NCBI GenBank assembly: GCA_012295275.1
Contig: CM022673.1
Coordinates: forward strand, 7,626,001-7,690,000
Length of the DNA: 64,000 nt
Reading direction: 5' to 3'
Source of the DNA: Chrysomallon squamiferum
Lineage: Eukaryota; Animalia; Mollusca
Positions 42,101 to 64,000 of this stretch are shown in pieces. Each line of letters begins with the position of its first letter. Positions within the stretch are counted from its first letter, which is position 1. The position numbers and the translations under genes are program-made. The notes beneath the pieces were generated by a model. The model made no database searches. It saw only the letters and a list, made by a program, of their open reading frames with translations, and was not told the DNA's origin.

Positions 42101-45100
42101 GAATTAAACTTGGTAGTTAAAATTATTTTTAAATAGTAGGCAGATACATTATACCTAAAGTTAATATTTACAGTTGTCTTTATTTCTGTTTAAGGATTGG
42201 ACAAAACAGTTTTCATTATTTTAAAGTAGATCGTTGTCATTTAACAGAATTTTAATTTTTTTTTTAATTTTTTTTTTTTTTTTTTTTTTTAATTTTTTTC
42301 ATTTTTAATTTTTTTTTTTTTTTTAAATTGTTTTTTCAGCACGTTCTCATTCAACCTCTTCTTATGAAGAAACTGATGATGACCCACTGAAGATGATGCC
42401 ACTGGATAGAGAACTGACAGGCTTGAACATTCCCTCAACTATCCCAGAAGTCAACAGTCCAAGAGTTACTGCTGTCATCATGGGTGCAGGTGAGATGTGC
42501 TTTATGAAAACAAATTCTCAGTGTATTAACTCATCCCTGAACTCAGATCTGAGGAAGATAAGCAGCATATTTTTTTCATAATATTCTTATAGTTTTAAAT
42601 CTGATGTTTATTGTTTTAATTTGAAAGTGTATTTTATTTATAAACAATATTTTTTTCTATTATTTTTCAGCTTTATTTTTTTGTATCAAAAAATGAATTA
42701 TCTGAATCCTGTTAAATGTATTAAATTTATTAAATTTATTTAATGTTGAACACTGGAAGAGATTTGATAAAGGTCTAAAGCCTTCAAGAGATCTTAATTT
42801 AGGTAATTCTATTTGTATAAAAATTTGTATTTTATTACTTTTGTTACATCATATGGTTTTATAATACATTATCTTGCTTTATAAATATTTATATCATATT
42901 TAAAATTTTTATTGCTGTTTACAGAGGAGCATTCTGTTTCATCATCAGTGATACCTATTTATCCAAACTCTTCACGTGTGCTACCCCCAACACCGGTTCC
43001 TACATTTCTCACCCAGAAGTCTTTCAGTCTGCTGGATGGGAAACTTGTCAGATCACAAGAAAAGGTAACTGTATAACAGAATAACGTAATTATTTTTATT
43101 TACCTTAATTTTTACTGATATACCACTATAGCAAACCACTAAGTCAAATGGATTTTGTAGCAGTACCATAAGTTTAATTGATTCTGGATCATTTCAGTTA
43201 AGTCTGTATGAATTAATGTAATAGGAATATTGTATCTAAGTTATGAACATACTGAATGTTATGTAAGACACTGTTGTATTTGAATCAAATTTTTATAATT
43301 TCAGGAGCTGTCTCCTAGGTCTAATGACGAACTTCCTAAAATATTACAGGATCCGGTGAAGGCTGTGAGTGGAAACAGCCTGCTACGCAGTCACTCTATT
43401 TTCAAGGAAGAGTTCATTCTGGAAGAAAGTCGGCCAAAAGATCCATTACTGCAGTCCTCGGGCAGTGATCCTATGTCCAGTCCTAGCAGTCTTTCATCAT
43501 CTTCCCCAAGAGACATGACCAGTATTATCCTCATAAATAAAAATACTGCGAAAATTGCCAAAGGTAGGATGTCACCTTTGATAACATGTGACTCAAAGCA
43601 AATCAGTGCCTGTGAGAACACTGCTGATTCAGGGCAGCAAAATGGAATTAAAACTCGTTCTAAAGTTGGCAGAAGTCAGAGTTTCAATACTGCAGGGTCA
43701 AAGTCAGCTTCTGCTAGGAAGTTTTCTGTGCCTGATAGTGTAACAGTGCATAATAAGCATATATCACCTGGGGGAATGGAGAGTTCTAATTCTGCAGTCA
43801 AAGTGAAATTTTCCAGAAGTGATTCAGAACTGCACAAACAGTTAGAGAATGCTGTTTCTCAAAATGGTAAAAATAAATTTACAAAGACCAGACATTCAAC
43901 TCCTGCTTCAACAGAAGTGCTTGTATCTCAGAACTGTGATAAAACACATGTAAAGGACTGTGGTGCAAAGTCTAAGACTGTAGCATCAGAAACTACTGGT
44001 AAAGAAAATATCAAAAGTTTGAATATTAATTTGAGTAAAAATCCACAAAGCAACAGCTGTGTAACGTCCTAAAAATAAGGAATCACAAGTATCAGATAAA
44101 AGTGCAGACACTAAAACATCTGATAAAAATATTGTAGACAAGAAGCAAACTGTAACATCAAAGAATGCAGTAACAAATAAACCCAGTAACAATGATATGA
44201 AAGTTTCAAGTAACAGTGCCACTTCAAATAACAGTCTGAAATCAAAAACATCTGACAAAAATGACAAGGATAAACAGCAAATTACATCCAAGAATTTGGC
44301 AACCAAATCATCAGATATTTCTAATGCAAAAAAGTCTGGAGAGAATGTTGCAGTAAGAAAAAGTTCAGATTCAAAAGTATATGATAACAAAAACAGTCCT
44401 CTACAACCAGTCAGAGAGGCAGTTATAAAAACAGAGACCAAAGAAAATAGTGCTGATCAGAAAAAAGATACAAAGCTGGAGAAAGAAAATGTTTCTTATA
44501 ACGCTGAAGCGAAAAATAATGACAAGATTGTGAAGGGATATGATGCTGTTGACAAGGATCAGAAGAAAGACATAAAAAAAGAAAATAATACTCAAAACAT
44601 TTCTACTTTTACCTCACAAAACCTTTCAAAATCTTCTGGGACAACACAGAGCATTTCCTTTGTCAGTAAAAAGCAGATCGTCCCTTCAAAATCTACACAA
44701 ATGACATCTATTACCAATCAGAATAAGACTAAATTCGTAAATGCTTCAAAAAAGGTTGACTCTACTAATAGTCTTGTTAAAACTGTAGTTCACAAAACTC
44801 AACAAGTAGTTCAGGTATCAGTGGAGAAGAAATCTCAAGAGAAGGAAGATCAAACAAAGCCTGCAGTTGAAATATCCAGTGCATCAACTATTGTTTCTAA
44901 AAGAGAGATTATTTCCAGTAAGTCTCCTAAACCTGCAGTAGTTGTTCCAAAAGCTGGAGTAACAAATAATGCAAATAATGTTCATTCATCAGTTTCTAAC
45001 AGTGTGCCTACATTTAAAACGGGACCTCTTGTTCCAAAGCATGATCCTGGTGGAGTAGTAACTAAAACTGTAACAACAACTGCAAATAGTGTACCAGTTA

Positions 45101-48100
45101 CCTCAACAATCCAGACTCAGAATTCTCCAACCACAGTTTCCCAGAACAATAAGTTGAAGTCATCAGTCTCCGCTGCTGTAAACCTTCAGCCTAAAACTTC
45201 CACATCTATTCCCTCCCAGTCTCAAAAGTCTTCTGCTCCAAACAGTAAATCATTTGAATCTGCTAAGAAAAGTGCTTCCAACCTTATTTCTTCCATTAAG
45301 AACTCTGTGCAAATGAAAAATGTAAAAAGTAGTGTTACTAGTGATCCTAATTCAAAGTCAGAACATTATAAACTTTCTGATCATCACCAGTTTGGACATG
45401 TTTCTTCAACAAAGGTAAATAAAAGTGAAGCAACACCAGCTAGCAATAAAAATGATATAAATTCAAAGATAACAGTCATAAGTTCACAGCATGATTTAGA
45501 TGCTGTCAAAAATAAACATGTATCAACTCCAAAAGAACCTTTAGTAAAGATTTTACTTACAGGAGAAGAACCAAAACCCAGGATTTCCAATATACCCACT
45601 GTTAATCCTTTCCCAAGTGAAACGATACAGACACCTCTTATAGTTAATCCATTTGAAGACTTTGCTTTACCAGATTACAATATTCCTACTGTTAAACCTG
45701 CAAAAATTGCCAAAGGTGTTCCTGTGACTTCCTTTGGTTATGTGGTTGGAAAATCAACAAAAGATGCCACATGTAGATATAAAACTGCATCTAAATCTCG
45801 TGTTATCAAAAGTGCCAAAAAGACTCAGAGTAGTAAAGATTCCAAGAGACCTGTGTCTAGTAATCGACAACCATCTGCCAGAAGACGAGGTGCAAAGTCA
45901 AAACCAGGAGAACAAGAAGAAGCTCATAAGGTTAAGAGTGCTAAGGGTAAAAGGTTACGTTCAGGTAGAAGGAAGAAATCTGACCAAGAACCTGCTGAAC
46001 TTACTAAGAATGCATTAAACCACGATGTTGCAGTTATAACTGGAATTGGCTGGCATGTTACCACTGATTGTTTTGATACATCTGATGTCAAAGTTGCTAA
46101 AATGATTGATTTGTCAGATTCTGAAGACTCTGATGTTTCTGTTGTTGAACTGATAAAAGATGAAGATCCATACTTCAAATTAAAACCAAAATTAACAGAT
46201 AGATCCGCCAGTCCAAGCACACCAAGATTTCAAGAAGTCAAAATGAAACCAAAACAGAAGTCTTTACTGCCTATAATGACCAATGATGGGTTTCCACCCA
46301 TGAATCTTGATATGACTCAAGAACCATTGCCTGGTGTCCAGATTACTGAAGCAACAACTTCATCAGTAAATAAAAAACCAAATTCCAAAGAGAATAAATT
46401 TTCTTCTAAAATGGATGATATCACAGATGAAGTCCATAAGAAAACAATGTTAAAGAAAATAAATTCCATTCCTCAGTCTCCCACACTTGTCAGTACTACT
46501 GTGAATGCTATTCACTATTTTGACCAGACTGTCACAGGAGAACAGTTAGATGAGCTTTTAGGAATTAATCCTGATGAAACCATTTTGAGTAGTCACTCTG
46601 CCATAATTAAGCAAGGCTTAAGAAATGAGGCACCATCTGGTAAAAAACATTCAAGTACTATGAAGAAGAAAGCAGATGGCAAAGCCACTTCTAATTCTCA
46701 GTCATTAGTGCCAGAGAATGAAGGAAAAACATCTGCTTCAATGGACCTTAATAAAGATACATCCAACTCAGAAGAGGATAAAAACAATTTACTTGAACCT
46801 GCACTTAACAGAGAGCCTAGTGAAGAAGAGATAACTAAGATCATTAAAAAATATGCAAGCTTGAAACATACCTCCTCAAAGCCTTCCAGAGAAAGAAATG
46901 ATGCCATGGACAACGATGATTTTATGTCCAAAAGATGTGAAAGAAAGTTTTCAGAAACTAAACGAGAACAACATGAGAATGACAGTGAAATTGATGAGGC
47001 TATTGAAGAGATCCTCAATTCCACTGCTGGAACATCGACTCTGAATTCGACACTAAGATCTAATAGAACTGTGAAGTCAGTGAACAGTACACTTACTGAA
47101 GCAGACATGAGTGTTCTTCTACAACTGAAGCAGACTGATTCTGTTTTCCATGCAAAACAGTCACATGATGATGTGCATCAGACAGAAACATCTGTTGATG
47201 AAACCAATCTAAATCTTTTGAAAAGATTCCATGATGACAACTTCAAAATGGGTTCAAAACTGAAAGCTATGATAGATGCTGATGCTGATGAGTCCAAAGT
47301 AAAAGCAATGATCAATGCAGATGATGAACACAAGCAGCTAGAAAAAGTAATGAACTGTGTACGCAACATGGAGCTGCAGGTTACCATGACAAATACTTCA
47401 GGCAAAACATCAAGTAACATCAGTCCACAGAAAATTCCTGTTAGGTCTGAGCAGACTATGGAGAGTCCACACAAAAGTAAAAAGCCTCCAAGTTGTCATG
47501 GACTGCCACCATTGTTCAAGGAACTCAAGAAAACAAGTGTCCAAAAAGGAAGAGCAATTTCAGAGGTAAAATATTAGATACATCATATTTGTAGTTTTTA
47601 ACATTCCATTACAGTCATATTATTGAGTGTCTATAAAAATTGTTCTGTTTTACATGATTTAATATTTTAAAATAAAATTTGACTATCACAAAATTATTTA
47701 AATTTTTACAGCATGAAGATCAGAGTCCTCGTATTGGTAATAAGGAAGAAGCCGTACTGGAAGCCATCAGTAAAGAGATCATTATAAACCCTTCAGAGGG
47801 AGAGGTGAGTTATTTTTCTACTTTAATATATTACAAAATATTTAACTCTTTTTTTCATTGACCTCATTTTACATACCTCTAATTTCACAAATATAAACAT
47901 ATATTTTCAACAAATTGTCATCAGATGAGAAAAAATATTCAACTAAACTTAAAAAATAAACAATTTGTTTAGAAAATAAACAGTTTGTTTAAAACATAAT
48001 AATTTTTATTATTTTGTAGACAATGTGCAGTCACTTGCGTGGTCGTAGAGGCAGCAGAACAAGCAGTGCTGGGACAGTGGACAGCATTGCATCAGATTCT

Positions 48101-49241
48101 GATGAGATGATAGAGTGGAAGAAAGGAAATGTTCTTGGAAGAGGAGCATTTGGAGTGGTAAGGAAGAATTTTTACAAAACGTTTTCATAGAAAACGATAT
48201 CTTGAATTTGCCTTGGTCTGAATATTGGCATCCTAGAGGCAGATCTTGTGTGAAATACCCCCGAACCTTAATTGGATGTTAGTGCATTAATCAGGTTTTA
48301 TTCTGGTACAGAAATAGTGTAATTTTTCAAATCAAATTTGGGCTTAAATAACATTTTATGGATATATTTTAGGATGTATGTATATGCTTGTGTGCTTGTG
48401 TCCATGTGTGTGTGTGTGTGTCCATGTGTGTGTGTGTGTGTATGTGTGGAAACATTTGTTTCTGTGTGTGTATGTATACATGTGTGTGTATATATATATA
48501 TTTAGTTGTTTATTTCAAAAGTGATTTATCTTATAATACATATTAAATAATTACATTAGCAAACTTAACTTTGTTGTAATATTTGAAAATAGTTCTGGTT
48601 TAAGAATAATTTGTCTGCAGTTATATTTTTTTTTAAATATGGGGTTGTTTTTTTTTTTTAAATATTTTCTACTTCATATTTGTTTCCTTCTCCAGGTTTG
48701 GTGTGGATTAACAAATGAGGGGGAACTGATTGCTGTGAAGCAGATAGAACTGAATGCAGCTGATCACAGCAAGGCACAGCGAGAGTATGAGAAAGTTCAG
48801 GAAGAAGTGGAACTGTTGAAGAATCTCAGACACAAGAACATAGTTGGGTTTGTATTTTTTCCATTAACAGTTTACACAGCAATTTACACAAATAAAAAAT
48901 ATATATATTTACTGTGGAAAAAATTGTTTTCAGGGCATCTCATGAGGCAAATTTATTGTTAATATGTTTGTACCTATTGACAATAAAAACTATTCATAAA
49001 AATTGGTATATTATTCATGGCCATGAAATTGCCCTGGAGTATCAAAAACTGGGCATCCACTTCTATCTATAAACTAGCTGTTAAAAGCATTTGGACTCAT
49101 TGCACCTTGCAATTTCTTTATTTTTATTAAAAGTCTTAAAACATTTATGTATTTATTATTTTATTTATAAGTGTTGTATCAAAAACTGATTGTAATTACA
49201 AAATGTTTCATCTTCATTTATTTATTTTAAAATATTATATA

Positions 49242-49286
<45 letters not shown>

Positions 49287-51352
49287 TTGTAATTCTTTAA
49301 TTTTATTTATTGTTATATTTATTTTTTAGATATCTTGGAACAAGCTTTGAGAATGATATTGTCAGTATATTCATGCAGTTTGTACCTGGTGGCTCTATTG
49401 CTAGTATTTTAGCCAGGTTTGGTGCTCTGGATGAGAGTGTGTTCAGACGTTACACTAAACAGATTCTAGAAGGTGTTGAATACCTGCATGAAAATGACAT
49501 CATCCACAGGTAAAGAGATTAACTGATACAAACAAACAAAATTTACAAAAATAAGTAAATAAATAAATGCATAAATAAATGAATCTTGAAGCATTCTTAA
49601 TCCTGAATACAAAAACAGAAATAATTTACTTGTTTGTTTTTTTTTTCTTTTTTTTTAACTCTTCTCATACTATAAGTAACAAGTTTGATTTTTGGTTGAT
49701 TTCAGTAAAATGTGAATGAAATTAAATACACACACACATACACACATATATATTATTTATTTATTTATTTTAATTACAGGGATATCAAAGGAGGTAATGT
49801 TATGTTAATGCCTAATGGTGTAATAAAGTTAATAGACTTTGGCTGTGCTAAACGGCTGTGTATAAACCTCAGTTTAAGCCAGTCACAGATTCTCAAGTCT
49901 ATGAAGGGTACACCATACTGGATGGCACCAGAAGTTGTTAATGAAACTGGACATGGGAAGAAATCAGATATATGGTAATAAAATTACATTTAACTAAAAA
50001 AATGTATATGTATATTTTTCAGTAATCATAACTAGTTTCAGATATATGAAAAGTATTGTATGTAAAAACACTTGTTAACATTAGTGGGTAGAATAATGAT
50101 ATGAAGAAAACAATTGCTGCCATTTTGTAAGCTGCTATAATTGATTATATTTTCTCACAAACAAAACACACATCATAATCAGGGAACTCTGAAACTGGAA
50201 TAGGAAAACCCATTTGTGTAGTTGAAAATCTATGAAACAATCACAGTTTACATTTATCTGTCATATTGTTTTTTAGTATCTACTAAAAGGAATAATTTTT
50301 ATTAAAGATATTTATTTATATTTGATTTGTTTTTATTCTATTTCAGGAGTGTTGGTTGTACTGTGTTTGAAATGGCAACTAAAAAACCACCATGGTAATG
50401 ACAACTTTTTTTATTTAGTTATTTGGTTGTTAATAACATCAAATCATTTTATTTTAATAAGATTAAATTTTGAGAAAAAATGAAACTTGTTTCATGCTTA
50501 TTTTTATGCAGAAATATGGTGCATTTTTTTATGCACATTTTTTTTTTTTGCTGGAATACTAAATATTTGTCTTAATTTATCAAATGTTTCTTTCAGGGCA
50601 AATGTCAATCCACTGGCTGCTATATTTGCAATTGGTTCAAATAAACCCATTCCTCCTTTACCAGAGCAGTTTTCTGCAGATGCTCGTAATTTCGTTGAAA
50701 GCTGTCTTACCAGGTAAAAATATGTCACATAAAAATCATTGAAAATGTATTAGGCATTCTGAAACCAAATCATACCAAATGAATAAATAAGAAGTAAAAA
50801 TGTGGGAAAAAAAGTAAAATGCATAGATACAAATTGTAAGAAAATTATAAAAAATATTTTTAAAAAGTTAGCCTCTCATTTCATGATTTTGATTTTCATG
50901 CTAGCATATACTGATAATGATTCACCACCTTTTTGTTTGTTCTATCTTTGATCCTTGATTAAAATTATATTCATTTATAAAATTCAACCGAAAATTTGAC
51001 TGAAAACAACAACAAAAACAACAAAGGTATAATTACAGAAAAAGAAAAGAAATTGGATTTATAAATAAAAAGGTCACTGCATTTTGTTATCATTTATAGC
51101 TGTAATATTTTTTTCATAACTAACAGTTTCTTTATTTTCAATTAATAATTAACAAAACTATTAAAATATTGTTTGAGAAAGTAAAGGCTACTTAATAAAA
51201 GCATCATTAATATATAAAATAGCCTGGTATTAAATGTGCCATTATAGTAATATTATAACTGTCATATTTTCAGAGACCAGAATAAAAGATTATCTGCCTC
51301 AGAACTGCTGCAGCATCCTTTCATTTTGAAGAAATCTCCATCAAGAAAATAA
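33293..51352 (+). CDS. MAP3K19: MAP3K19/YSK4-like STE11-family kinase with N-terminal ankyrin repeats (about 2,437 aa after correcting two 1-nt insertions)
   Basis: Exons: 33293-33514, 33863-33991, 34245-34439, 37262-37422, 38265-38380, 38653-38792, 39484-39745, 40059-40104, 40262-40364, 40960-41156, 41491-41557, 41940-42064, 42340-42489, 42925-43064, 43305-47565, 47712-47804, 48020-48157, 48696-48847, 49330-49509, 49780-49974, 50347-50394, 50597-50713, 51274-51352; all GT/AG. Kinase WKKGNVLGRGAFGVVWCGLTNEGELIAVKQ...SIFMQFVPGGSIASILARFG...HRDIKGGNVMLMPNGVIKLIDFGCAKRL...[43 protein letters not shown] matches MAP3K19 as recalled. Extra bases near 39535 and 44066. Confidence 0.88.
33863..39745 (+). 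CDS. MAP3K19: Ankyrin-repeat exons of the MAP3K19-like gene
   Basis: GNTPLIWAVKKGHIKIVHLLLKHGAD; LLQAAWQGNAKVVQKLL; EGLTPLLL; KTCLHYAS; FMPIHLASKSGNTNVIVSLVEGGSEVN; GLTPLHITAYNDHHQAAKMLLQHGAD, all ankyrin consensus. Confidence 0.88.
39221..39435. mobile_element. Possible Tc1/mariner-type MITE relic
   Basis: TA followed by CAGGGTGGTGCAAAAG at the left end, an imperfect inverted copy CTTTTTGCACCCCCTCTG at the right end, about 215 bp and non-coding. Confidence 0.4.
43305..47565 (+). CDS. MAP3K19: 4.26-kb exon encoding a Ser/Lys/Thr-rich low-complexity linker of the MAP3K19-like kinase
   Basis: ORFs 43356..44072 and 44197..47577 are joined by a +1 shift at 44063-44070. Acceptor tttcAG at 43304, donor GAG|GTAAA after 47565. 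Confidence 0.85.
48020..51352 (+). CDS. MAP3K19: Kinase-domain exons of the MAP3K19-like gene
   Basis: Gly-loop GRGAFG, VAVK-type IAVKQ, HRD, DFG and APE are all intact across 7 exons; stop TAA at 51350-51352. Confidence 0.93.
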
Positions 51353-52220
51353 AGAAAATTTCTTTGTAAACAGTGGAAATTCAAAAAATAAACCATCTTG
51401 CAGCCAGTAACATCATTATGATAAATGTTGTGAAAAAGAGTGCCAGATAAAAGGAGTTATACTGCAGTATTTCATCTGTGTTATGCAGCTGTATTTCAGC
51501 CAGTTCATGCTTTTGTTATACAGCAGTGTGTCAGTCAGGCAAAGTTCTGTTTGTATGTGTATTAAACAGATGTATTTCAGCCAATTATACATGTATAGGT
51601 ATACTTTAGTTGCTTATCTACTAGACAGACATATGGAATTTTTCAGTCATTTAATGATTTATATGCAATTTACTCATTGTGATTAAAGCCACGTGGAAAT
51701 ACAACGGTATTACACTTAAAATGTGATTTTGGATGCACCATGATTTAATTATTCATATATTTAAAAAAAAATTATATGAATGTGCAAAATAAAGAATCAG
51801 ATTTGGTTTTTAATTTTGTACATTAAGTTCAGTGCAGGAATAAATATTGCATTAAATCAGTATTTCCTCTTTATTAAATCACTGTATTAGTACCACCAAG
51901 CTAGCATTAACATCTTTCTGACAGGAACATTCAACTTGAAAATCTTAAAGTTTTAAATAAGTACTGCATTGAACGAACATCAACATTTCAGTAATAAGAG
52001 TAATTATTGCAAACATTCAACAAATAGTATCAGTGATTATCAAATACATTAAAGAAGTTTTCAACAAACATTGAATAAGCACAAAAAACTTTCTCCAAGT
52101 TTTGAATTAGTACCAGAGATATTTAACAGTAACTGAATTAGCAATCACTCAGTTGGCATTATGTTAAAAAAATACTGAATCAGTGTATAAATTATTCAGC
52201 TAGAATTGAATAAGTAGCTG

Positions 52221-52775
52221 AAGTATTCCCAAGTATTGAATCAACACCTTAAGTATTCCACAAGTATTGAATCAGCACCTTAAGTATTCCACAAGTATTG
52301 AATCAGCACCTGATGTATTCGTCAAGTATTGAATCAGCACCTGAAGTATTCCACAAGTATTGAATCAGCACATGAAGTATTCCACAAGTATTGAATCAAC
52401 ACCTTAAGTATTCCACAAGTATTGAATCAGCACCTTAAGTATTCCACAAGTATTGAATCAGCACCTGATGTATTCGTCAAGTATTGAATCAGCACCTGAT
52501 GTATTCGTCAAGTATTGAATCAGCACCTGATGTATTCCACAAGTATTGAATCAGCACATGAAGTATTCCACAAGTATTGAATCAGCACATGAAGTATTCC
52601 ACAAGTATTGAATCAGCACCTTAAGTATTCCACAAGTATTGAATCAACACCTTAAGTATTCCACAAGTATTGAATCAGCACATGAAGTATTCCACATGTA
52701 TTGAATCAGCACCTGATGTATTCATCAAGAATTGAATCAACCACCTGAAGTATTCATACTAGTACTGAATCAGTG
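52221..52775 (+). repeat. 31-bp minisatellite, about 18 copies, in the probable MAP3K19 3'UTR
   Basis: Unit AAGTATTCCACAAGTATTGAATCAGCACCT(T/G), starting at 52221, 52251, 52282, 52313 ... 52716, 52748. No spacers. Confidence 0.95.
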
Positions 52776-55580
52776 TCTCAAGTATTCAGCAAATATTGCG
52801 TAAATTTAACGTTAAGAAAGAAAAGATAAACTGTACTATGTTCACATGGATGTACATAGTAATTTTCTTTTTGCAATAATGATTCGAATGGGTATTTTGT
52901 AAGAATGTTGGTTTTTTTACTGTGTTCTTTAACCTGAAATACAGAGATAACTGTTTAAAGTGTGCCTAACTTTTGTAATGGTGATGTGTGGTTTTGTGCA
53001 GCAAGAACTGTATGAAAATGGATAACTTGTCTTTTTACAAGTTCCTATTATTTGGCTGTTTTGGAATGAGTTTATGAAGATATGATCTCAAAAATGTAAT
53101 ACTCTGATTTTGTTTTTGAGATCTTGGACAAAGGTGCTAGAAATTTAGCACACTTCTGTGTTAAAGTGTTGTGATGGACTTGTTACTCTTGTGAGAGGAT
53201 TACATTCTATCGATTTTTCATTTAGTTAATTTATTTACCTTTTATTTGAAATTAAGAAAAGCAATGATTTTTGGGGAACAAAGATGTGTGTTTTTATTTT
53301 CAAAATATTCTTCATTTCTTTTTCTTTGTTTTTTATGAATAATTCTGAAAAATAAAACATTGGACACATTTGAGAATTTGAAACCTGGAGAGTAATTTCA
53401 GTCCAGTCACCAACTGCTGATGGATTTTAATTGTGATATATCAACTATTCACTTAGATTTTCAACAAAAATGCAATCTTTTGTACTTGTTGTGACTTCAC
53501 AAAATCATGATCAATAATTCAGTGTGTGAAATTTTGTAACAATTAGTATTTTACAGGACTCAGTTTTTAATGTGTTGGTTGTAACAAAACTAAACATTCC
53601 ATCTTTTTTGCTATTTACACAGTTGTGATATATATATAAAACGTTTTAGAATTATTTACAATGATTTTAATTTACTTTTGCTGTTCTGAATTTTGTTTTA
53701 ACCAATAACTTTTGATAATATTTTAACCAACTTAATATTTGATCTTTGTACATGAGCACAAGCACACTCACATACATTAATTTCAAGTATATTCATTTAC
53801 TTAACCTTGTAAAAATCTGTATAGAGAAAATTACTAATTTTATAAAACTAGGATCATTTTAATTTTATGTAATGGTTTTTACTCCACTTGGGTTTTATGA
53901 TAATTTTTACTGCTTTATGTAAATTACTTTTTTAACAATTTTGAATGAAATGATAAATTAAGACTGTATTGAATGGGCATTTCATGTAAATATTTTATGG
54001 CAGGAAATGTGTAAAAATATTACAAATATCTTCTATTGTGTAAATCTATAGTTTGATGTTTGTAACAAGATTTAGAATCTTTGACAGTTTTTCTTCATAC
54101 AGTTTTGTGTTTTTTTCATTCTACCATTATATATTTGAATATTAATATAGAATTCATTTGTTTTAAATACAGTGTCTTCATTTGTATCACTTTTATAGTT
54201 TTTACAGTTCTTTGTAAATATACACCACCATTTTCCTTTTCTAAAGTATCTTTTAAATTTTAAAATCAATGAAAATATGTATACTGCTGATAATTTACAT
54301 TTTTTGAGTGCTAAAAGAATAACTTTTTATGCAGAAATTTTACATTTTTCCACACCAGGTTTGTACATTTTATACAAAACCCTGAGAAGCAATCTAATTC
54401 ACCTCTTTTTTTTTTGGATGTAACCTTTTTATTTCATTTGTCATGCAAAATGCCAATTATGCAATATTTGAAAAGCAATTTCAGATTTGTTAAGTACCTC
54501 TTTTTAAAAGGTTAAGAAATTAATACAAAAATAAACTTTTTAAACTTCTATGTATCACTGATATTTTGGGGAGTTATTTAGCTTTTGGATGCCAAAATTA
54601 CCTTTATCTTTAGTTTTGGAAGTTGATCCTTTTATGTACATATATACGTATAATTTTATTGTTGTTTATGCACATTCCACTTTTAAACTTTATAAATTTA
54701 TTTGTAATATATTTTGTAAATCATATCAAATCATTGTATTTAGCATTTATTATAAAATATAACCAAACTAGTACTAGTTACTATTCACCCATTACTAAGT
54801 GTTTCTGTGCTGACTGAAGACTGCAATTGTTTATTAACATATGAAATGTTTTAAATAGTTGGCTTGTTCAGCTTTTTTGAAAGAATAAAATAACTGTATT
54901 ACACCAAGTATTAATAAGTAAGCAGAATGATAGCAAACAATGGAAACAAAATCAGCTAAAGATTAAAATCTTACTTAAAATTCAGCACATTTATATTACC
55001 ATTTGTATATAATTTTTTAAAACATGTGGAAGTTTATTTTTGTCATACAACTGCTACCGATACCAACTAAGCCATGTGTACATTTTGTTCAGTGTAAATA
55101 CCAGCGATACTTACTAGCATGACAACAATGGTTAGAGCTAAATACAAGTAATTCACATTTTAATTTAATATTTTGTGTATTTTTATTTGCATCGTCCTCC
55201 CAATTCAGATGTAAATAACTTCCTTACCCCAACTAACATCAATCATACAAGTATAACCATTAGCCAAAATTGTATTTTTGTATGTACCACATGTACAATC
55301 TTTAATAAAAACATTTTGAATAATACTGTTTTGTTTTGTCAGTAATAATATAATCTTTTTCCACACAAATAAAAACACTGATTACTGCTGTAAACAAGAA
55401 TTGGACATATGGACAAATACAAGTTTTAATTGGAGTGTAGCTGGAAAATTAAAATGGTTGGATGTATTAGTTCAACTGACCATACATTAAAAAAAAAAAA
55501 AAAAAAAAAAATTAAAATTAAAATGAAAACAAATAACAAAAAAGTAAGATGTATACATTTTATTTTCAGTCTGTCACTGT

Positions 55581-55704
55581 TTAAAATTTACGAAATGCTT
55601 TTTTAGATCGTGAAGTCTTCATAACTTTCAGAACATTGAAGCATACAGTTTTGGAGAGAGGTCTGCATTCACCAATTGTCACAACATCACCAACGGAAAT
55701 ATCC
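55581..55704 (-). CDS. RPS11: 40S ribosomal protein S11 (uS17), last coding exon; upstream exons lie beyond the window
   Basis: ttttcAG acceptor at 55705-55706, then (R)[40 protein letters not shown] with the RPS11 C-terminal GECRPLSKT motif. AATAAA on the minus strand at 55559-55564. Too short for the ORF track. Confidence 0.92.
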
Positions 55705-55846
55705 CTGAAAAATTAAAAACATTTGTTACAAATAAATAGTCATAAATGTATCAAAAGATAATAAATGGTTCTTTTATTCTGGAACTTTTTTTGGTAAATA
55801 TTTGAAACAAGTAGTAATGGTTTAATAAAACCTGTTTGGTACAAGC

Positions 55847-55931
55847 TGGTGTAAAATCTTTCAGAGACTTCTGAAGTATCATCACAGGATTTATGAAGAC
55901 CATCGTGATTATCATTTCGGATAATGCACCA
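55847..55931 (-). ncRNA. SNORD35: U35/SNORD35-like box C/D snoRNA, copy A1 (variant C box)
   Basis: Minus strand: ATGATAA-TCACGATGGTCTT-CATA ... GTGATGA ... CTGA (55861-55864), with a flanking TGGTG/CACCA stem. Confidence 0.65.
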
Positions 55932-56223
55932 AGAGAAAAGGTTAACAAATATTTAGTGACATATGTTACTTTAGCAAACACTGTACTGCACCTTCAGTAT
56001 TTAAGTATCTTTACTCACCTTTTTAAAAAATTTATTTCAACTTCAGTGGTAAAAATGTTTTTAACCATATGCTTATTTAATCTTAATATTATTGTAAATA
56101 GCAAAATATTTTCCATGAGAAAATTTAAAAAAATCTATGCATTTTAATATATTTCTACATCAAAACTGATCAGAATATTTAGACTAACTAAAATCTTAAT
56201 TTTATTATCATGGTTTGTTTCAA

Positions 56224-56315
56224 GTGCAACATCTGCAATCAGAAATTTAAATTTGTCATCAATTATATTTTATGAAGACCATCGTGATTAGATATCATCA
56301 TTGCAGATAATGCAC
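56224..56315 (-). ncRNA. SNORD35: U35/SNORD35-like box C/D snoRNA, copy A2 (best canonical copy)
   Basis: Terminal inverted repeat ATCTGCAA/TTGCAGAT, C box ATGATGA (56295-56301), guide TCACGATGGTCT complementary to 28S AGACCGUCGUGA, D' CATA, C' TGATGA, D CTGA (56239-56242). Confidence 0.85.
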
Positions 56316-56776
56316 CAATAAAAATGAAAAAACCAAGAAACAAATAAAATAAATTATTTTAATCAACATTACTCTGGATTGGTATTTAAAAAAGTAAACC
56401 AGCAGCAGTATCTAATCAATTCCTGTGTATGTATGGAAATGTAATGTATTAGCTATTGTGTACTAATATTTATTTCTTTAGACATCTCCATCATGTGGAA
56501 ATAGTCGCAAGAAAACTGACTGATCTACATAAATAAATCATGATAAAAATGGAACATTTTTGTTTAAAACACTTTATAGCTTAACATTTTCTTTCATGTT
56601 TATTTGTTTACTGAATAACACAGCAATATTAATATTAAAAGATTTACTAAATGTAGTTTCAAACTGGATGTTGGATAATATACAAAATCATGCAAAGATT
56701 GAACTGCAAAAATTGACAGAAAATCTAAGATAAAATGACATAGTAAATTACTTCTACATATGTACAGATTTTATAC

Positions 56777-56878
56777 ATCAGTGCAATATCTGCATTGTCA
56801 GAATTTTAATTTGTCATCAATTTTATTTTATGAAGACCATCGTGATTAGATATCATCATTACAGAACACACACTGATG
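56777..56878 (-). ncRNA. SNORD35: U35/SNORD35-like snoRNA, copy A3
   Basis: C box 56853-56859, intact guide, D box 56798-56801, outer stem CATCAGTG/CACTGATG. Confidence 0.8.
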
Positions 56879-57151
56879 AAAATTTTAAAAACAGCTTTAA
56901 ACTAATACAAAACTGAATTCAAACCTTTAGAGTAGTGAGAATCAAAAGGATGATTTATTATAAATTTGCTTAAAAAATATGCTGAACAGATAGTCATAGG
57001 ACCATTTATCTGGCAAGCTTGGGGCTTGATGTGATCTAGATTTCTGGTCCAAAACTGAAGATCAATATAAAATAATGAAAAATTGTGAGTGCAAAAGCTT
57101 TTAGAAGTGTAACATGCTGTGTATTATAATTTCATTAGAAAATGTGTTATT

Positions 57152-57238
57152 AGTGATTTATCTTACTTCAGAAACTGGTGAATATCTTCATGGTTTTTTT
57201 TAAGATAAAATAATTTCATCACTGTAGATAAACTCACT
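57152..57238 (-). ncRNA. Box C/D snoRNA-like unit related to the B type, U35 guide lost
   Basis: C GTGATGA (57216-57222), D' CTTA, C' ATGAAGA, TATTCACCAGTTT, D CTGA (57168-57171), terminal stem AGTGA-TTTATCT/AGATAAA-TCACT. Confidence 0.5.
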
Positions 57239-57548
57239 GTTCATGTGTGCTGGAGTTAATACAGATTTTGATATATTCTATAGTAGTATTAGCTGTCAAA
57301 TGCATTCAGAAAAGCAAATTACTAAATCTACATCCTGAAGAGCCATGCCTTGTTAGAACAGTCATAAACCAAATGTAGAACAATTAACAAACTGAGGATG
57401 ACAGATATTCCTATTTCTTTACCAATAGATGAAATGTTTAGTAATTAGTACTTCTGAACTACTTTATATTCTTTAAATATATTTTATATATTAAATTGTA
57501 CTGAAATTTGTCTATTAAAAATAATTTGAAAATTAAATATAATTTCAA

Positions 57549-57610
57549 CATCTGCAATCAGAAATTACAATTTTGTCATCAACATGTTATGAAGACCACA
57601 TCATTACAGA
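57549..57610 (-). pseudogene. U35-like snoRNA copy A4 with deleted guide
   Basis: Aligns to the A copies but reads GAAGACCAC-ATCATT on the plus strand, i.e. about 15 nt of guide and C-box flank are missing. Confidence 0.65.
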
Positions 57611-57900
57611 AAAAAACACTGTTAAAAATCATTAAACTTCAAATACTTTTCAAGCAATATATAGAATTTTATCTATGCTAGAATTTGGTTTGTATCCATA
57701 TAAAAAATATAAATCCTGTTCTTGCAATAACTTAAGTTTGTATATTTATTTAAATTTTATACTGCTGAATAAAATAAAGCATCTACAACGAGATATTTGA
57801 AAATGAAATTAATGATTAAATATATCTGTACAAAAACCCATTTTATTAAATATAAATATTGCAATAAAGCATCTACAACTATTTGAAAATATTAATGGTA

Positions 57901-57975
57901 TATCTGCTGTCAGAAAGGTGAATATCATCATGACATTTAAGAAGGGGATCGTGATTGTTTCATCATTGCAGACAT
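57901..57975 (-). ncRNA. B-type box C/D snoRNA, copy B1 (altered guide AATCACGATCCCCTT)
   Basis: TCTGC stem, C ATGATGA (57960-57966), D' CTTA, perfect C' ATGATGA (57925-57931), D CTGA (57910-57913), GCAGA stem. Confidence 0.75.
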
Positions 57976-58951
57976 CAAAATTGTTAATTTATGATCAACA
58001 ATGTTTTTACAGACTAATAATTTTTTTTTAAAAAGGATGGCAGATAAATGAATGAAGATTCAGTAACACCAATGGAAAGAAAGATTTTTGCTATAGGTTG
58101 TTTAAGACTGAAAGCATGCCAATGAAGAAGCTAAACCCTCCAAACTAAATCCTGCATCCAAAGCAAAAAATGTGTGATGTTGCTTGAAACTACATTCCAT
58201 TTACACTTAGATACAAAAATAATAAAAGACTACTGTGATACATTTTTATCATTACAGACAGGAATTGAAATAATATCAATTTATTAGCATGCACATGCTA
58301 AAAAATTAATTGTTGTTCTGAAGTACATGCCCTGAAATAATATCAAAGAAAAGAATTTACAAATGTTCTCAATGCTAGTTTCATCATACAAGTATCACAA
58401 GTAGTTATTTAACTATAAAAGGCTTCTACAATACTTCACAACGCACAGATGGATATTATAGGGAAATCTGTTTAATTTGCTTGTTAATATGTTCTTGGCA
58501 ATATGATCCATATTTAGTATAATCCTATCTTTAATAATTTATTTTCCTGTAATTTACTAATCTAATAAAATTGTTCATGTGTGCTGGAGTTAATTCAGAT
58601 TTTGATATATTCTATAGTAGTATTAGCTGTCAAATGTATTCAGAAAAGCAAATTACTAAATCTACATCCTGAAGAGCCATGCCTTGTTAGAGCAGTCATA
58701 AACCAAATGTAGAACAACTAACAAACTGAGGATGACAGATATTCCTACTTCTTTACCAATAGATGAAATGTTTAGTAATTAGTACTTCTGAACTACTTTA
58801 TCTTCTTTAAATATATTTTATATATTAAATTGTTTGGCCTGATCTAATTAGTGCTATCATGTAGTAAAATATTATTACATTTAAATTTCAAATAGGTTAC
58901 AACCCAAGTAATCTATTAATCATTGAATTATGAAAATTAACATTTATATAC

Positions 58952-59045
58952 CAGTGCAACATCTGCAATCAGAAATTACAATTTTGTCATCAACATGTTA
59001 TGAAGACCATCGTGATAATGTATCATCATTACAGAAAAAACACTG
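58952..59045 (-). ncRNA. SNORD35: U35/SNORD35-like snoRNA, copy A5
   Basis: C 59023-59029, intact guide, D 58969-58972, stems TCTGTA/TGCAGA and CAGTG/CACTG. Confidence 0.78.
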
Positions 59046-59403
59046 TTAAACTTCAAATACTTTCAAGCAATATACAGAAGTAAATAGCTATCTATGCTAG
59101 AATTTGGTTTGTATCCATATAAAATGATGTTTGTATCAAGAATTACCCCATACACATGCCCCCCAAAAATCCTGTTCTGCTGATTAACCAAGTAACTTAA
59201 GTTTGTATATTTATTTAAATTTTATACACCTGAATAAAATAAATCAACTGGACACAATTTCTTTCCGAGATGGAAATTTTATAAATGGTCTGAAAATAAT
59301 TTGATTAAATATAATTTCTAACTGTTGTGTGTACAAAAACCCATTTTATTAAATATAAATATTGCAATAAAGCATCTACAACTATTTGAAAATATTAATG
59401 GTA

Positions 59404-59478
59404 TATCTGCTTTCAGAAACGTGAATATCATCATGACATTTAAGAAGGGGATCGTGATCGTTTCATCATTGCAGACAT
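59404..59478 (-). ncRNA. B-type box C/D snoRNA, copy B2
   Basis: C 59463-59469, D 59413-59416, guide GATCACGATCCCCTT. Confidence 0.75.
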
Positions 59479-60466
59479 CAAAATTGTTAATTTATGATCA
59501 ACAAGCCTCTTATTAAATTTACTATGTTCTTACAGAATAATAATTTTTTTTAAAAGGATGGCAGATAAATGAAGGAAGATTCAGTAATACCAATGGAAAG
59601 ACAGATTTTTGCTATAGGTTGTTTAAGACTGAAAGCATGCCAATGAAGAAGCTAAACCCCTCCAAACTAAATCCTGCATTCAAAGCAAAAAATGTGTGAT
59701 GTTGCTTGAAACTACATTCCATTTACACTTACATAGATACAAAAATAAAAAGACTACTGTGATAAATTTTTATCATTACAGACAGGAATTGTAATAGTAT
59801 CAATTTATTAGCATGCACATGCTAAAAAATTAATTGTTCTAAAGTACACGCCCTGAAATAATATCAAAGAAAAGAATTTACAAATATTCAGAATGCTAGT
59901 TTCATCATACAAGTGTCACAAGTGGTTATTTAACTATAAAAGGCTTCTACAATGGCTCGCAACACACAGATGGATATTAAAGGGAAATCTGTTTAATTTG
60001 CTTGTTAATATGATCCATATTTACTATAATCCTATCTTTAATAATTTATTTTCCTGTAATTTACTAATCTAATAAAATTGTTCATGTGTGCTGGAGTTAA
60101 TACAGATTTTGATATATTCTATAGTAGTATTAGCTGTCAAATGCATTCAGAAAAGCAGATTACTAAATCTACATCCTGAAGAGCCATGCCTTGTTAGAGC
60201 AGTTATAAACCAAATGTAGAACAACTAATAAACTGAGGATGACGGATATTCCTATTTCTTTACCAATAGATGAAATGTTTAGTAATTAGTACTTCTGAAC
60301 TACTTTATATTCTTTAAATATATTTTATATATTAAATTGTTTGGCCCGATCTAATTAGTGCTATCATGTAGTAAAATATTATTACATTTAAATTTCAAAT
60401 AGGTTACAGCCCAAGTAAACTATTAATCTATTAAATATTGAATTATGAAAATTAACATTTATATAC

Positions 60467-60560
60467 CAGTGCAACATCTGCAATCAGAAATTACAATTTT
60501 GTCATCAACATGTTATGAAGACCATCGTGATAATGTATCATCATTACAGAAAAAACACTG
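60467..60560 (-). ncRNA. SNORD35: U35/SNORD35-like snoRNA, copy A6
   Basis: C 60538-60544, intact guide, D 60484-60487. Confidence 0.78.
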
Positions 60561-60874
60561 TTAGAACTTCAAATACTTTCAAGCAATATACAGAAGTAAA
60601 TAGCTATCTATGCTAGAATTTGGTTTGTATCCATATAAAATGATGTTTGTAACAAGAATTACCCCATACACATGCCCCCCCAAAATCCTATTCTTCTAAT
60701 TAAGCAAGTAACTTAAGTTTGTATATTTATTTAAATTTTATACGCTGAATAAAATAACGCAGCTGGACACAATTTCTTTCCGAGATGGAAATTTTATAAA
60801 TTGTCTGGAAATAATTTGATTAAATATAAATATTGCAATAAAGCATCTACAACTATTTGAAAATATTAATGGTA

Positions 60875-60949
60875 TATCTGCTTTCAGAAATGTAAATATC
60901 ATCATGACATTTAAGAAGGGGATCGTGATTGTTTCATCATTGCAGACAT
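60875..60949 (-). ncRNA. B-type box C/D snoRNA, copy B3
   Basis: C 60934-60940, D 60884-60887, guide AATCACGATCCCCTT. Confidence 0.75.
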
Positions 60950-61939
60950 CAAAATTGTTAATTTATGATCAACAAGCCTCTTATTAAATTTACTATGTTT
61001 TTACCGAATAATAATTTAAAATAAAAGGATGGCAGATAAATGAAGGAAGATTCAGTAATACCAATGGAAAGACAGATTTTTGCTATAGGTTGTTTAAGAC
61101 TGAAAGCATGCCAATGAAGAAGCTAAACCCTCCAAACTAAATTCTGCATCCAAAGCAAAAAAATGTGTGATGTTGCTTGAAACTACATTCCATTTACGCT
61201 TAGATACAAAAATAATAAAAGACTATTGTGATAAATTTTTATCATTACAGACAGGAATTGAAATAATATCAATTTATTAGCATGCACATGCTAAAAAATT
61301 AATTGTTGTTCTGAAGTACATGCCTTGAAATAATATCAAAGAAAAGAATTTACAAATATTCAGAATGCTAGTTTCATCATACAAGTGTCACAAGTGGTTA
61401 TTTAACTGTAAAGTGCTTCTACAATGGCTCACAACACACAGATGGATATTATAGGGAAATCAGTTTAATTTGCTTGTTAATATGTTCTTGGCAATATGAT
61501 CCATATTTACTATAATCCTATCTTTAATAATTTATTTTCCTGTAATTTACTAATCTAATAAAATTGTTCATGTGTGCTGGAGTTAATACAGATTTTGATA
61601 TATTCTATAGTAGTATTAGCTGTCAAATGCATTCAGAAAAGCAAATTACTAAATCTACATCCTGAAGAGCCATGCCTTGTTAGAGCAGTCATAAACCAAA
61701 TGTAGAACTCATAAACTGAGGATGACGGATATTCCTATTTCTTTACCAATAGATGAAATGTTTAGTAATTAGTACTTCTGAAATACTTTATCTTCTTTAA
61801 ATATATATGTTAAATTTTTTGGCCTGATCTAATTAGTGCTATCATGTAGTAAAATATTATTACATTTAAATTTCAAATAGGTTACAAGTAATCTATTAAT
61901 CTATTAAATATTGAATTATGAAAATTAACATTTATGTAC

Positions 61940-62033
61940 CAGTGCAACATCTGCAATCAGAAATTACAATTTTGTCATCAACATGTTATGAAGACCATCG
62001 TGATAATGTATTATCATTACAGAAAAAACACTG
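61940..62033 (-). ncRNA. SNORD35: U35/SNORD35-like snoRNA, copy A7 (C box mutated to ATGATAA)
   Basis: C variant 62011-62017, intact guide, D 61957-61960. Confidence 0.65.
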
Positions 62034-62389
62034 TTAGAACTTCAGATACTTTCAAGCAATATACAGAAGTAAATAGCTATCTATGCTAGAATTTGGTTTG
62101 TATCCATATAAAATGATGTTTGTATCAAGAAGTACCCCATACACATGCCCCCCAAAAAAAACCTATTCTTCTAATTAAGCAACTTAAGTTTGTATATTTA
62201 TTTAAATTTTATACGCTGAATAAAATAAATCAACTGGACACAATTTCTTTCCGAGATGGAAATTTTATAAATGGTCTGAAAATAATTTGATTAAATATAA
62301 TTTCTAACTGTTGTGTGTACAAAAACCCATTTTATTAAATATAAATATTGCAATAAATCATCTACAACTATTTGAAAATATTAATGGTA

Positions 62390-62464
62390 TATCTGCTTTC
62401 AGAAATGTAAATATCATCATGACATTTAAGAAGGGGATCGTGATTGTTTCATCATTGCAGACAT
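62390..62464 (-). ncRNA. B-type box C/D snoRNA, copy B4
   Basis: C 62449-62455, D 62399-62402. Confidence 0.75.
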
Positions 62465-63435
62465 CAAAATTGTTAATTTATGATCAACAAGCCTCTTATT
62501 AAATTTACAATGTTTTTACAGAATAATAATTTTTTTTTAAAAAGGATGGCAGATAAATGAAAGAAGATTCAGTAATACCAATGGAAAGACAGATCTTTGC
62601 TATAGGTTGTTAAAGACTGATAGCATGCCAATGAAGAAGCTAAACCTTCCAAACTAAATCCTGCATCCAAAGCAAAAAATTAGGACATGTTCCTGTGTGA
62701 TGTTGCTTAAAACTACATTCCATTTACACTTATATAGATACAAAAATAAAAAAAGACTATTGTGATAAACTGAAATAATATCAATATATAAGCATGCACA
62801 TGCTAAAAAATTAATTGTTGTTCTAAAGTACATGCCCTGAAATAATATCAAAGAAAAGGATTTACTAATATTCAGAATGCTAGTTTCATCATACAAGCAA
62901 TTATTTAACTATAAAGGGCTTCTACAATGGCTCGCAACACAGATAGATATTACAGGGAAATCAGTTTAAGTTGCTTATTAATATGTTCTTGGCAATATGA
63001 TCCATATTTACTATAATCCTATCTTTAATAATTTATTTTCCTTTAATTTATTAATCTAATAAAATTGTTCATGTGTGCTGGAGTTAATACAGATTTTGAT
63101 ATATTCTATAGTAGTATTAGCTGTCAAATGCATTCAGAAAAGCAAATTACTAAATCTACATCCTGAAGAGCCATGCCTTGTTAGAGCAGTTATAAACCAA
63201 ATGTAGAACAACTAACTGAGGATGACGGATATTCCTATTTCTTTACCAATAGATGAAATGTTTAGTAATTAGTACTTCTGAAAAACTTTATCTTCTTTAA
63301 ATATATTTTATATATTAAATTGTTTGGCCTGATCTAATTAGTGCTATCATGTAGTAAAACATTATTACATTTAAATTTCAAATAGGTTACAAGTAATCTA
63401 TTAATCTATTAAATATTGAATTATGAATTTTATGA

Positions 63436-63504
63436 ATCTGCAACCATCAACATGAATTATGAAGACCATCGTGATAATGTATCATCATTACAGAAAAAAC
63501 ACTG
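63436..63504 (-). pseudogene. U35-like snoRNA copy A8 lacking the D box
   Basis: C box (63482-63488) and guide are intact, but the segment carrying the D box is deleted (plus strand ATCTGCAA-CCATCAAC). Confidence 0.65.
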
Positions 63505-63866
63505 TTAGAACTTCAGATACTTTCAAGCAATATACAGAAGTAAATAGCTATCTATGCTAGAATTTGGTTTGTATCCATATAAAATGATGTTTGTGTCAAG
63601 AAGTACCCCATACACATGCCCCCCCCCAAAAAAACCTATTCTTCTAATTAAGCAAGTAACTTAAGTTTGTATATTTATTTAAATTTTATACGCTGAATAA
63701 AATAAATCAACTGGACACAATTTCTTTCCGAGATGGAAATTTTATAAATGGTCTGAAAATAATTTGATTAAATATAATTTCTAACTGTTGTGTGTACAAA
63801 AACCCATTTTATTAAATATAAATATTGCAATAAAGCATCTACAACTATTTGAAAATATTAATGGTA

Positions 63867-63941
63867 TATCTGCTTTCAGAAACGTGAATATCATCATGAC
63901 ATTTAAGAAGGGGATCGTGATTGTTTCATCATTGCAGACAT
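63867..63941 (-). ncRNA. B-type box C/D snoRNA, copy B5
   Basis: C 63926-63932, D 63876-63879. Confidence 0.75.
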
Positions 63942-64000
63942 CAAAATTGTTAATTTATGATCAACAAGCCTCTTATTAAATTTACAATGTTTTTACAGAA

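What the first reader, a model, noticed from the sequence alone, without database searches (positions are those of the whole stretch)
57901..63941. B-type paralog: intact C/D boxes but a rewritten guide (GGTCT to CCCCT), a candidate new-target or orphan snoRNA
Seen: five copies keep a perfect C box, perfect C' (ATGATGA), D box and TCTGC/GCAGA stem. They share ATCACGAT with the U35 guide, but the D'-proximal part reads CCCCTT-CTTA instead of GGTCTT-CATA. That change removes pairing at the +5 methylation-determining position on the U35 site. All five B copies keep their boxes, whereas 4 of 8 A copies are damaged or variant. Inference: a neofunctionalised guide with predicted target 5'-AGGGGAUCGUGAUUG-3'. 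By eye the nearest rRNA stretch is the neighbouring 28S UAGGGAACGUGA, but it has mismatches close to D', so the true target may be another RNA or none.
Basis: partly seen in the sequence, partly recalled or inferred. Interest (0 to 1): 0.8.

Follow-up and report, generated by a model that had tools for sequence, protein, structure and literature searches.

The report
U35 relative aimed at helix 64
A vent-snail relative carries five recently duplicated copies of a small-RNA-like gene with intact boxes whose guide no longer fits its neighbours' ribosomal target and fits best, though imperfectly, a different site methylated in vertebrates, so it is likely a recombined or retargeted guide whose activity is untested.

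Summary
Five minus-strand box C/D units keep perfect C, C' and D boxes and an 8-bp stem; their D' guide ends ATCACGAT-CCCCTT, against ATCACGAT-GGTCTT in neighbouring U35 copies.

The five-copy argument for selection fails. The copies ride in a young 1.5-kb tandem repeat (3-9% diverged), and B is no more conserved than spacer (3/70 vs 100/1228 variable columns, p=0.36). Better evidence: boxes and stem survived while B's flanks became unalignable with U35 copies.

The best lead is new: in register, B pairs +2..+7 and six distal positions with 28S helix 64, placing +5 on the equivalent of human LSU-G3606. That site is methylated in vertebrates, and its zebrafish guide SNORD201 has the same +1..+6. 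All six B-specific guide letters pair there (chance about 0.001 before allowing for post hoc choice).

The duplex still has three core mismatches or a bulge and breaks the 9-bp rule. The snail's rRNA was unavailable, and RNA contigs cannot show a mature RNA. Verdict: likely a U35 x G3606-guide recombinant or retargeted paralog, a weak guide at best.

The parts
57900..57975 (-). B1 box C/D unit: stem, C 57966-57960, D' guide 57959-57942, D' 57941-57938, C' 57931-57925, D-side element 57924-57914, D 57913-57910
   Evidence: sequence; contigs of 4 of 4 runs laid cover part or all of it
59403..59478 (-). B2 (A>G at guide +15)
60874..60949 (-). B3
62389..62464 (-). B4 (identical to B3 over 70 nt)
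63866..63941 (-). B5
57155..64000 (.). Tandem array, unit 1471-1521 bp, about 4.5 units inside the window and running off its end; each unit holds one B and one A
55857..55925 (-). A0: U35 guide, broken C box, 3' half resembling B
   Evidence: SNORD35 16.5 bits
56230..56309 (-). A1: intact U35-like copy
   Evidence: SNORD35 25.5 bits, gathering 36; 12-bp duplex with 28S
56791..56864 (-). A2: U35-like copy
57546..57613 (-). A3: U35-like copy with most of the guide deleted
58955..59040 (-). A4: intact U35-like copy
60470..60555 (-). A5: intact U35-like copy
61943..62028 (-). A6: U35-like copy with variant C box
63428..63499 (-). A7: U35-like copy with 3' end lost
57162..57227 (-). C-type unit: boxes and stem, D' CTTA and 3' half shared with B, no U35 guide
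55584..55704 (-). Last coding exon of an RPS11-like gene, the likely host; no other RPS11 exon found in the window
   Evidence: 35 of 40 residues identical to Gigantopelta aegis RPS11-like

Best explanation
B is a box C/D snoRNA-like gene related to the neighbouring U35 copies, copied five times inside a young tandem repeat upstream of an RPS11-like exon, and its D' guide likely arose in one recombination or conversion event that joined U35 sequence to a guide for 28S helix 64 (the SNORD101/SNORD201/snoR60 type). If expressed, it would assemble a normal C/D RNP and would pair +2..+7 with helix 64, with +5 on the equivalent of human G3606. The U35-derived centre leaves three mismatches or a one-base bulge, so it is predicted to methylate weakly or not at all. 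Shown: boxes, stem, homology, young array, lost U35 pairing, in-register match on stand-in rRNA. Inferred: intronic biogenesis, the recombination event, the target, any activity.
For: (1) Register match: 13 WC + 1 GU of 18 on stand-ins L012, L031, L048, 12 WC without +1. The zebrafish row for LSU_3606 gives the same target with C at +1. All six letters where B differs from A1 in register (+4, +5, +6, +16, +17, +18) are WC there, and B2's +15 variant stays paired as G-U. (2) The +5 base is a mapped Nm site in human, mouse and zebrafish (PMC8210301 Table 1). Its zebrafish guide SNORD201 has +1..+6 UUCCCC like B, also at D', and itself carries a mismatch at +7. The Rfam snoR60 consensus guide is the complement of the same site and aligns to B5 with one gap. 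(3) Chance: 124-205 of 3000 shuffled guides and 174-266 of 4096 variants of the six positions find such a site anywhere in three rRNA sets; scaled to about 110 Nm sites this is about 0.001 (110 from PMC4696412). (4) Three adjacent changes among 40-45 constrained positions have p about 0.003-0.004 as independent hits, favouring one event or selection. (5) B's flanks are unalignable with A1, A2, A5 and C (8 of 8 tests p>=0.087) while boxes and stem are intact, which points to long maintenance. (6) No difference listed in C, guide, D' or C' in 4 runs of 2 studies (5 rows not shown).
Against: The duplex breaks the published rules: 9 bp from +2 to +10 (PMC7668251 section 8) and no bulges (10.1101/037259; PMC4696412). 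B mismatches at +8, +10, +11 and has G-U at +9; energy -12.6 vs -31.5 kcal/mol for a perfect guide and -19.2 for A on its own site. The test criteria were chosen after seeing the site and several other sites were tried first, so the true chance is nearer 0.01-0.02 (my judgement). 4 of 7 stand-in loci holding the helix lack the GGGG run. No mollusc rRNA was examined. snoR60 scores only 17 bits (gathering 40) for B5 and is not among the 28 hits listed for B1, where SNORD100 and others score alike. A0 has a full U35 guide on a B-like 3' half, which fits plain descent of B from a U35 copy. No intact G3606 guide was found in the window (motif scans). Among 64 triplets at +4..+6, CCC is unremarkable by strict core pairing in L037 and L018, both of which lack the canonical helix-64 site.
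Confidence: 0.45

Rival explanations
1. B is an old U35 duplicate that lost its guide (an orphan or early pseudogene) and was then carried passively by the tandem repeat; the helix-64 match is chance and B guides nothing.
For: B shares ATCACGAT, the stem and its terminal geometry with A1, and its 3' half with A0. The locus is full of decaying U35 copies. No depletion of substitutions in B; 197 of 1391 spacer windows are as conserved. No rule-conforming target in stand-in rRNA. Precedent: U77 proposed to derive from U80 with loss of a guide function (PMC2653536 section 14).
Against: Does not explain why all six B-specific letters pair with one mapped Nm site, nor why the changes cluster while boxes, stem and ATCACGAT stay intact.
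Confidence: 0.3
2. B is a working guide for a lineage-specific site I could not see: a variable rRNA stretch in this snail, or a tRNA, snRNA or mRNA.
For: Read by eye in PMC7668251 supplement 2, human 18S has a stretch near nt 1600-1610 that would pair with B at +3..+10 (8 WC); a fungal-type 18S stretch pairs +2..+10 (9 WC, -15.7 kcal/mol; 3 of 60 shuffles as good). No guide difference listed across runs.
Against: The first 18S stretch already differs in both zebrafish rRNA types and the second differs in all three vertebrate sequences shown. No SSU_160x site in the zebrafish table. No snail RNA tested.
Confidence: 0.2
3. One reading: B acts on the 28S stretch 21 nt upstream of the U35 site (+5 = human G4485 equivalent), as a methylation guide or chaperone.
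For: 9 of 10 WC pairs at +4..+13; the three changed letters all pair with its GGG; present in 33 of 42 stand-in loci, most of the rest not covering it.
Against: +3 and +8 unpaired in 33 of 33, +2 in 32 of 33; -12.3 kcal/mol, within the shuffle range (mean -9.9, sd 3.0); no LSU_448x site in the zebrafish table.
Confidence: 0.05

Closest known systems
SNORD35/U35 (Rfam RF00211; yeast snR73; guides LSU-C4506; RPS11 intron in chicken and zebrafish)
   Same: Host neighbourhood (RPS11-like last exon), guide at D', central TCACGAT; the A copies are its local members.
   Different: B mismatches the U35 site at +4..+6 and gets no SNORD35 hit at E<=10.
Zebrafish SNORD201 (related to human SNORD101; rps12 intron; guides LSU-G3606)
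   Same: D' guide, identical +1..+6, same predicted +5 base, naturally imperfect duplex.
   Different: SNORD201 resumes pairing from +8 after one mismatch at +7; B pairs +7 then fails +8, +10, +11. Different host gene. No body similarity tested beyond reading by eye.
snoR60 (Rfam RF00339; that it is a plant family in one clan with SNORD101 is recalled)
   Same: Consensus D' guide is the complement of the helix-64 site and aligns to B5 with one gap; similar letters before box D.
   Different: 17 bits against a gathering score of 40; not listed for B1.
Cis-duplicated snoRNA families with guide gain or loss (U77/U80 in gas5; zebrafish SNORD52/SNORD202 cluster)
   Same: Tandem paralogs in one host gene with degenerate or new antisense elements.
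   Different: Here about 14 units may share very few introns, and the two guide types are amplified together in a 1.5-kb repeat.

Membership tests
Box C/D snoRNA | C (RUGAUGA) and D (CUGA) boxes at the ends, internal D'/C' | tested here: met
   5 of 5 copies
Box C/D snoRNA | Terminal stem closing C and D | tested here: met
   8 bp in 3 of 3 copies folded, same 2-nt spacer geometry as A1
Box C/D snoRNA | Intronic position in a transcribed host | tested here: inconclusive
   Same strand as and upstream of an RPS11-like last exon; upstream exons not in the window; only 2 GTGAGT donors downstream of the array; RNA contigs cover B1 and flank
Box C/D snoRNA | Stable mature RNA bound by 15.5K/fibrillarin | not testable with these tools
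   Only assembled contigs were available
Box C/D methylation guide | >=9 contiguous bp from +2 to +10 with an rRNA target, no bulge | tested here: inconclusive
   Not met at helix 64 or the 28S neighbour site; met only by a fungal-type 18S stretch that differs in vertebrates; snail rRNA not available
SNORD35/U35 | D' guide complementary to the LSU-C4506 site with +5 paired | tested here: not met
   +4..+6 changed; -11.5 vs -22.3 kcal/mol
SNORD35/U35 | Rfam RF00211 score at gathering (36 bits) | tested here: not met
   No hit for B at E<=10; even A copies reach only 16-25 bits
SNORD35/U35 | Shared ancestry with local U35 copies outside the boxes | tested here: met
   0 of 2000 box-fixed shuffles reach the score for B5 vs A0, A1, A5; stems are partly generic, so this is somewhat overstated
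SNORD101/SNORD201/snoR60 (G3606 guides) | D'-proximal guide placing +5 on LSU-G3606 | tested here: met
   On stand-ins L012, L031, L048 and by the zebrafish table row
SNORD101/SNORD201/snoR60 (G3606 guides) | Continued pairing at +8..+12 | tested here: not met
   +8, +10, +11 mismatch, +9 G-U
SNORD101/SNORD201/snoR60 (G3606 guides) | Rfam gathering score | tested here: not met
   snoR60 17 bits vs 40 for B5; SNORD101 not listed, possibly hidden by the clan filter
SNORD101/SNORD201/snoR60 (G3606 guides) | Orthology by synteny (RPS12 host in vertebrates) | not testable with these tools
   No animal genomes searchable; here the neighbour is RPS11-like

The most novel reading that the evidence does not exclude
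B is a natural guide swap caught in the genome: a U35 body recombined with, or was selected towards, a helix-64 guide, and it now methylates the snail's G3606-equivalent through a bulged 8-bp core helped by distal extra pairing, released from an intron packed with many snoRNAs or as the capped end of a sno-lncRNA with the downstream U35 copy.
Probability: 0.15. Interest if true: 0.7.

Novelty: new variant of a known kind. Interest (0 to 1): 0.42.

Why it matters
How snoRNAs acquire new targets is mostly inferred from distant species. A locus holding intact U35 copies, decayed copies and a copy whose changed letters all point to another mapped methylation site would be a compact, testable case of guide switching by recombination. 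If B works, it would also show that a bulged duplex can guide methylation in an animal. If it does not, the locus is an ordinary birth-and-death cluster and a warning that intact boxes in young tandem copies are not evidence of selection.

Tried and rejected
No whole genome is held for this window, so no snail rRNA, tRNA or snRNA could be searched. Rfam at gathering thresholds: 0 hits in 64 kb. B-type pattern: 0 matches in viral contigs; 11 in metagenome contigs, with GC 0.49-0.72 and no C'/stem likeness to B, judged chance. Attempts to fetch animal rDNA: three viral scans gave 0, one gave 2 loci; the genome scan gave 40 of about 260 eukaryotic contaminant stretches, none identified as molluscan; an SSU family search in 5 genomes returned only low-scoring, apparently prokaryotic SSU genes, not used; the matching LSU search gave no answer. 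No perfect complement of 9 nt or more to the D'-proximal guide elsewhere in the window outside the array. D-side elements of B: three versions among five copies and no consistent target. The C unit's D-side pairs 7-8 nt with a motif next to helix 64, but that motif occurs twice in 28S and also matches the U38 guide, so it is not used as evidence. RNA contigs of X8 and X9 do not cover 58184-58420 where DNA contigs do; both are from one study and absence in contigs is not evidence. Contig depth was not used for copy number. A tRNA variable-loop target and U1 were considered from recall only and not tested. Full-text search for the guide or target 12-mers gave 7 papers unrelated by title. Searches for a prior description of this locus or of mollusc snoRNA clusters found none relevant; one search was noise. 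Earlier scan notes: nothing near, by sequence or by words; irrelevant.
Full report
Setting. The window is from an AT-rich animal genome. A HIPK exon is 97% identical to Gigantopelta aegis HIPK2 and at most 76% to the other full-coverage hits, so the organism is close to that peltospirid gastropod. At 55584-55704 on the minus strand lies the last coding exon of an RPS11-like gene, 35 of 40 residues identical to a G. aegis RPS11-like protein listed with the same longest-contig length as its HIPK2. No other RPS11 exon was found in the window. U35 is hosted in RPS11 in chicken (PMC2653536, passages) and zebrafish (PMC7668251 supplement 4).

The observation. Five B units exist as described. Each has C, D' (CTTA), C', D and an 8-bp terminal stem (3 of 5 folded). 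Eight A units carry or carried the U35 guide; they hit SNORD35 below gathering, and A1 forms a 12-bp, -19.2 kcal/mol duplex with the U35 site. B gets no SNORD35 hit at E<=10 but is homologous to A0, A1, A5 and a C-type unit beyond the boxes (0 of 2000 box-fixed shuffles each).

Is five-fold integrity meaningful? No. The copies sit in a tandem repeat of 1471-1521 bp. Units 2-5 differ by 3.4-5.2% and unit 1 by 7.8-9.4% (unit 1 counted only over its homologous part). Among units 2-5, B has 3 variable columns of 70, the rest 100 of 1228 ungapped columns (Fisher p=0.36); 197 of 1391 spacer windows are gap-free and as conserved; 22 box bases stay unchanged by chance with p=0.15; 4/8 vs 0/5 damaged gives p=0.098. 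The better argument for selection is older. B's 60-nt flanks do not align with those of A1, A2, A5 or C (8 of 8 tests p>=0.087), yet every box and the stem are intact. The scaffold was therefore probably maintained for a long time (inference).

Population and RNA data. Nine runs of three studies hold part of the region. Four were laid on 57880-58420. Differences listed inside B1 fall only in the D-side element (57917, 57920); none is listed in C, the guide, D' or C' (5 rows not shown). Contigs from two RNA runs of one study cover B1 and continue into its flanks. That fits a precursor transcript or DNA carry-over and says nothing about a mature RNA.

Target search. The snail's RNAs were not obtainable. 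I used 42 eukaryotic rDNA loci as stand-ins, three of them with near-complete LSU (L018, L037, L048), none identified as molluscan. B has lost the U35 site (-11.5 vs -22.3 kcal/mol). Its +5 base is human G4485 by counting from the LSU_4493 row, and no LSU_448x entry exists in the zebrafish table. A 9-bp match to a fungal-type 18S stretch is absent from the three vertebrate 18S sequences read by eye; a second, variable 18S stretch matches +3..+10 in human but not in either zebrafish type.

The helix-64 lead. In register from D', B pairs with the 28S helix-64 sequence at +1..+7, +12, +13 and +15..+18, with G-U at +9, in L012, L031 and L048; the other 4 of 7 loci holding the helix lack the GGGG run. 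Zebrafish early 28S has the canonical site with C at +1. The +5 base is LSU-G3606, methylated in human, mouse and zebrafish but not yeast, with no guide given in PMC8210301 Table 1 (section 14). One preprint assigned SNORD12 under relaxed criteria (10.1101/037259, passages). The zebrafish study assigns SNORD201, related to human SNORD101, hosted in rps12, whose +1..+6 equal B's and which has a mismatch at +7. The Rfam snoR60 consensus guide is the exact complement of the site and aligns to B5 with one gap, at a sub-threshold 17 bits; for B1 other families score alike and snoR60 is not listed, so Rfam is not diagnostic. All six positions where B differs in register from A1 and that lie outside the shared core are Watson-Crick at this site, and B2's single guide variant becomes G-U. 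4-7% of shuffled or permuted guides find an equally good site anywhere in a full rRNA set; scaled to about 110 Nm sites this is about 0.001. The criteria were set after seeing the site, so I discount this to about 0.01-0.02.

Against activity. The core has three mismatches in register, or one bulged target base giving 8 pairs; -12.6 kcal/mol against -31.5 for a perfect guide. Zebrafish guides need 9 bp from +2 to +10 (section 8), and bulges are described as absent from validated pairs. Extra distal pairing can raise methylation up to fivefold according to the review, which keeps weak activity possible.

How it likely arose. B's centre equals the local U35 letters while both ends fit helix 64, and the three D'-proximal changes are adjacent (p about 0.003-0.004 as independent hits). 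One recombination or conversion between a U35 copy and a G3606-type guide explains both facts. B shares D' CTTA and its 3' half with the C-type unit, which may be a relic of such a donor, but C's best Rfam hits are SNORD36 and SNORD24, and A0 carries a full U35 guide on a B-like 3' half, so plain descent from U35 with a chance match remains a serious rival. These steps are inferred.

Biogenesis. Fourteen C/D-like units lie within 8.2 kb upstream of the RPS11-like acceptor, 355-1075 nt apart, with only two GTGAGT donors, both downstream of the array (simple motif scan). Either unrecognised non-coding exons exist or many units share an intron. In mammals two snoRNAs in one intron give sno-lncRNAs (PMC4696412, passages). 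An earlier scan note reports a similar array in one ribosomal-protein intron of another animal (e1-8672560; unchecked lead).

Comparison and novelty. B works, if at all, like a D'-type rRNA methylation guide. It fails membership in U35 (guide) and in the G3606 guide families (core pairing, Rfam score). Tandem snoRNA paralogs that gain or lose guides are known, so this is a new variant of a known kind. My searches found no paper on this locus. Papers seen: PMC2653536 passages and section 14; PMC3845636 abstract and outline only, not used; 10.1101/037259 passages, supplements not opened; PMC8210301 passage and section 14; PMC7668251 passages, section 8, supplements 2 and 5 whole, 3 part 1 of 2, 4 part 1 of 4 plus row searches; PMC4696412 passages.

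Verdict. The feature is real. Selection on the five copies is not shown, and the proposed target is weak. The helix-64/G3606 match is a specific, testable lead. Interest 0.42.

Noticed in passing
window 57162-57227 (-): C-type C/D unit with boxes and stem; best Rfam hit SNORD36 at 26.4 bits (gathering 30), next SNORD24; shares D' and 3' half with B; starts about 10 nt after a GTGAGT donor.
   Followed up: partly
window 58226-58261, 59750-59785, 61219-61254 (-): A further decayed U35-like 5' half in three repeat units (nhmmer E 0.028 to 0.001), deleted in the fourth.
   Followed up: partly
window 58374-58390 (-) and copies near 59900, 61372, 62885: A C box followed 10 nt later by a D'-like CTGA in three of four units; possibly another decayed C/D gene.
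   Followed up: no
window 55584-55704 (-): The RPS11-like exon reads KTVCFNV, as does G. aegis RPS11-like (a one-member cluster); canonical RPS11 has R at that place (recalled). Likely a divergent ribosomal-protein paralog; 88% identity against 97% for HIPK suggests fast evolution.
   Followed up: partly
window 55705-64000 (-): Fourteen C/D-like units with only two strong donor motifs: many snoRNA-like genes may share one intron.
   Followed up: partly
window 52137-52849: 31-bp tandem repeat, downstream of a kinase gene.
   Followed up: no
window 33281-50714 (+): Exons of an ankyrin-repeat-like, MAP3K-like kinase gene with one very long exon (about 43300-47570), judged by eye from translations.
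   Followed up: no
L012-L051: Many bacterial and archaeal genome records contain eukaryotic rDNA contigs (40 of about 260 stretches shown), i.e. contamination.
   Followed up: partly
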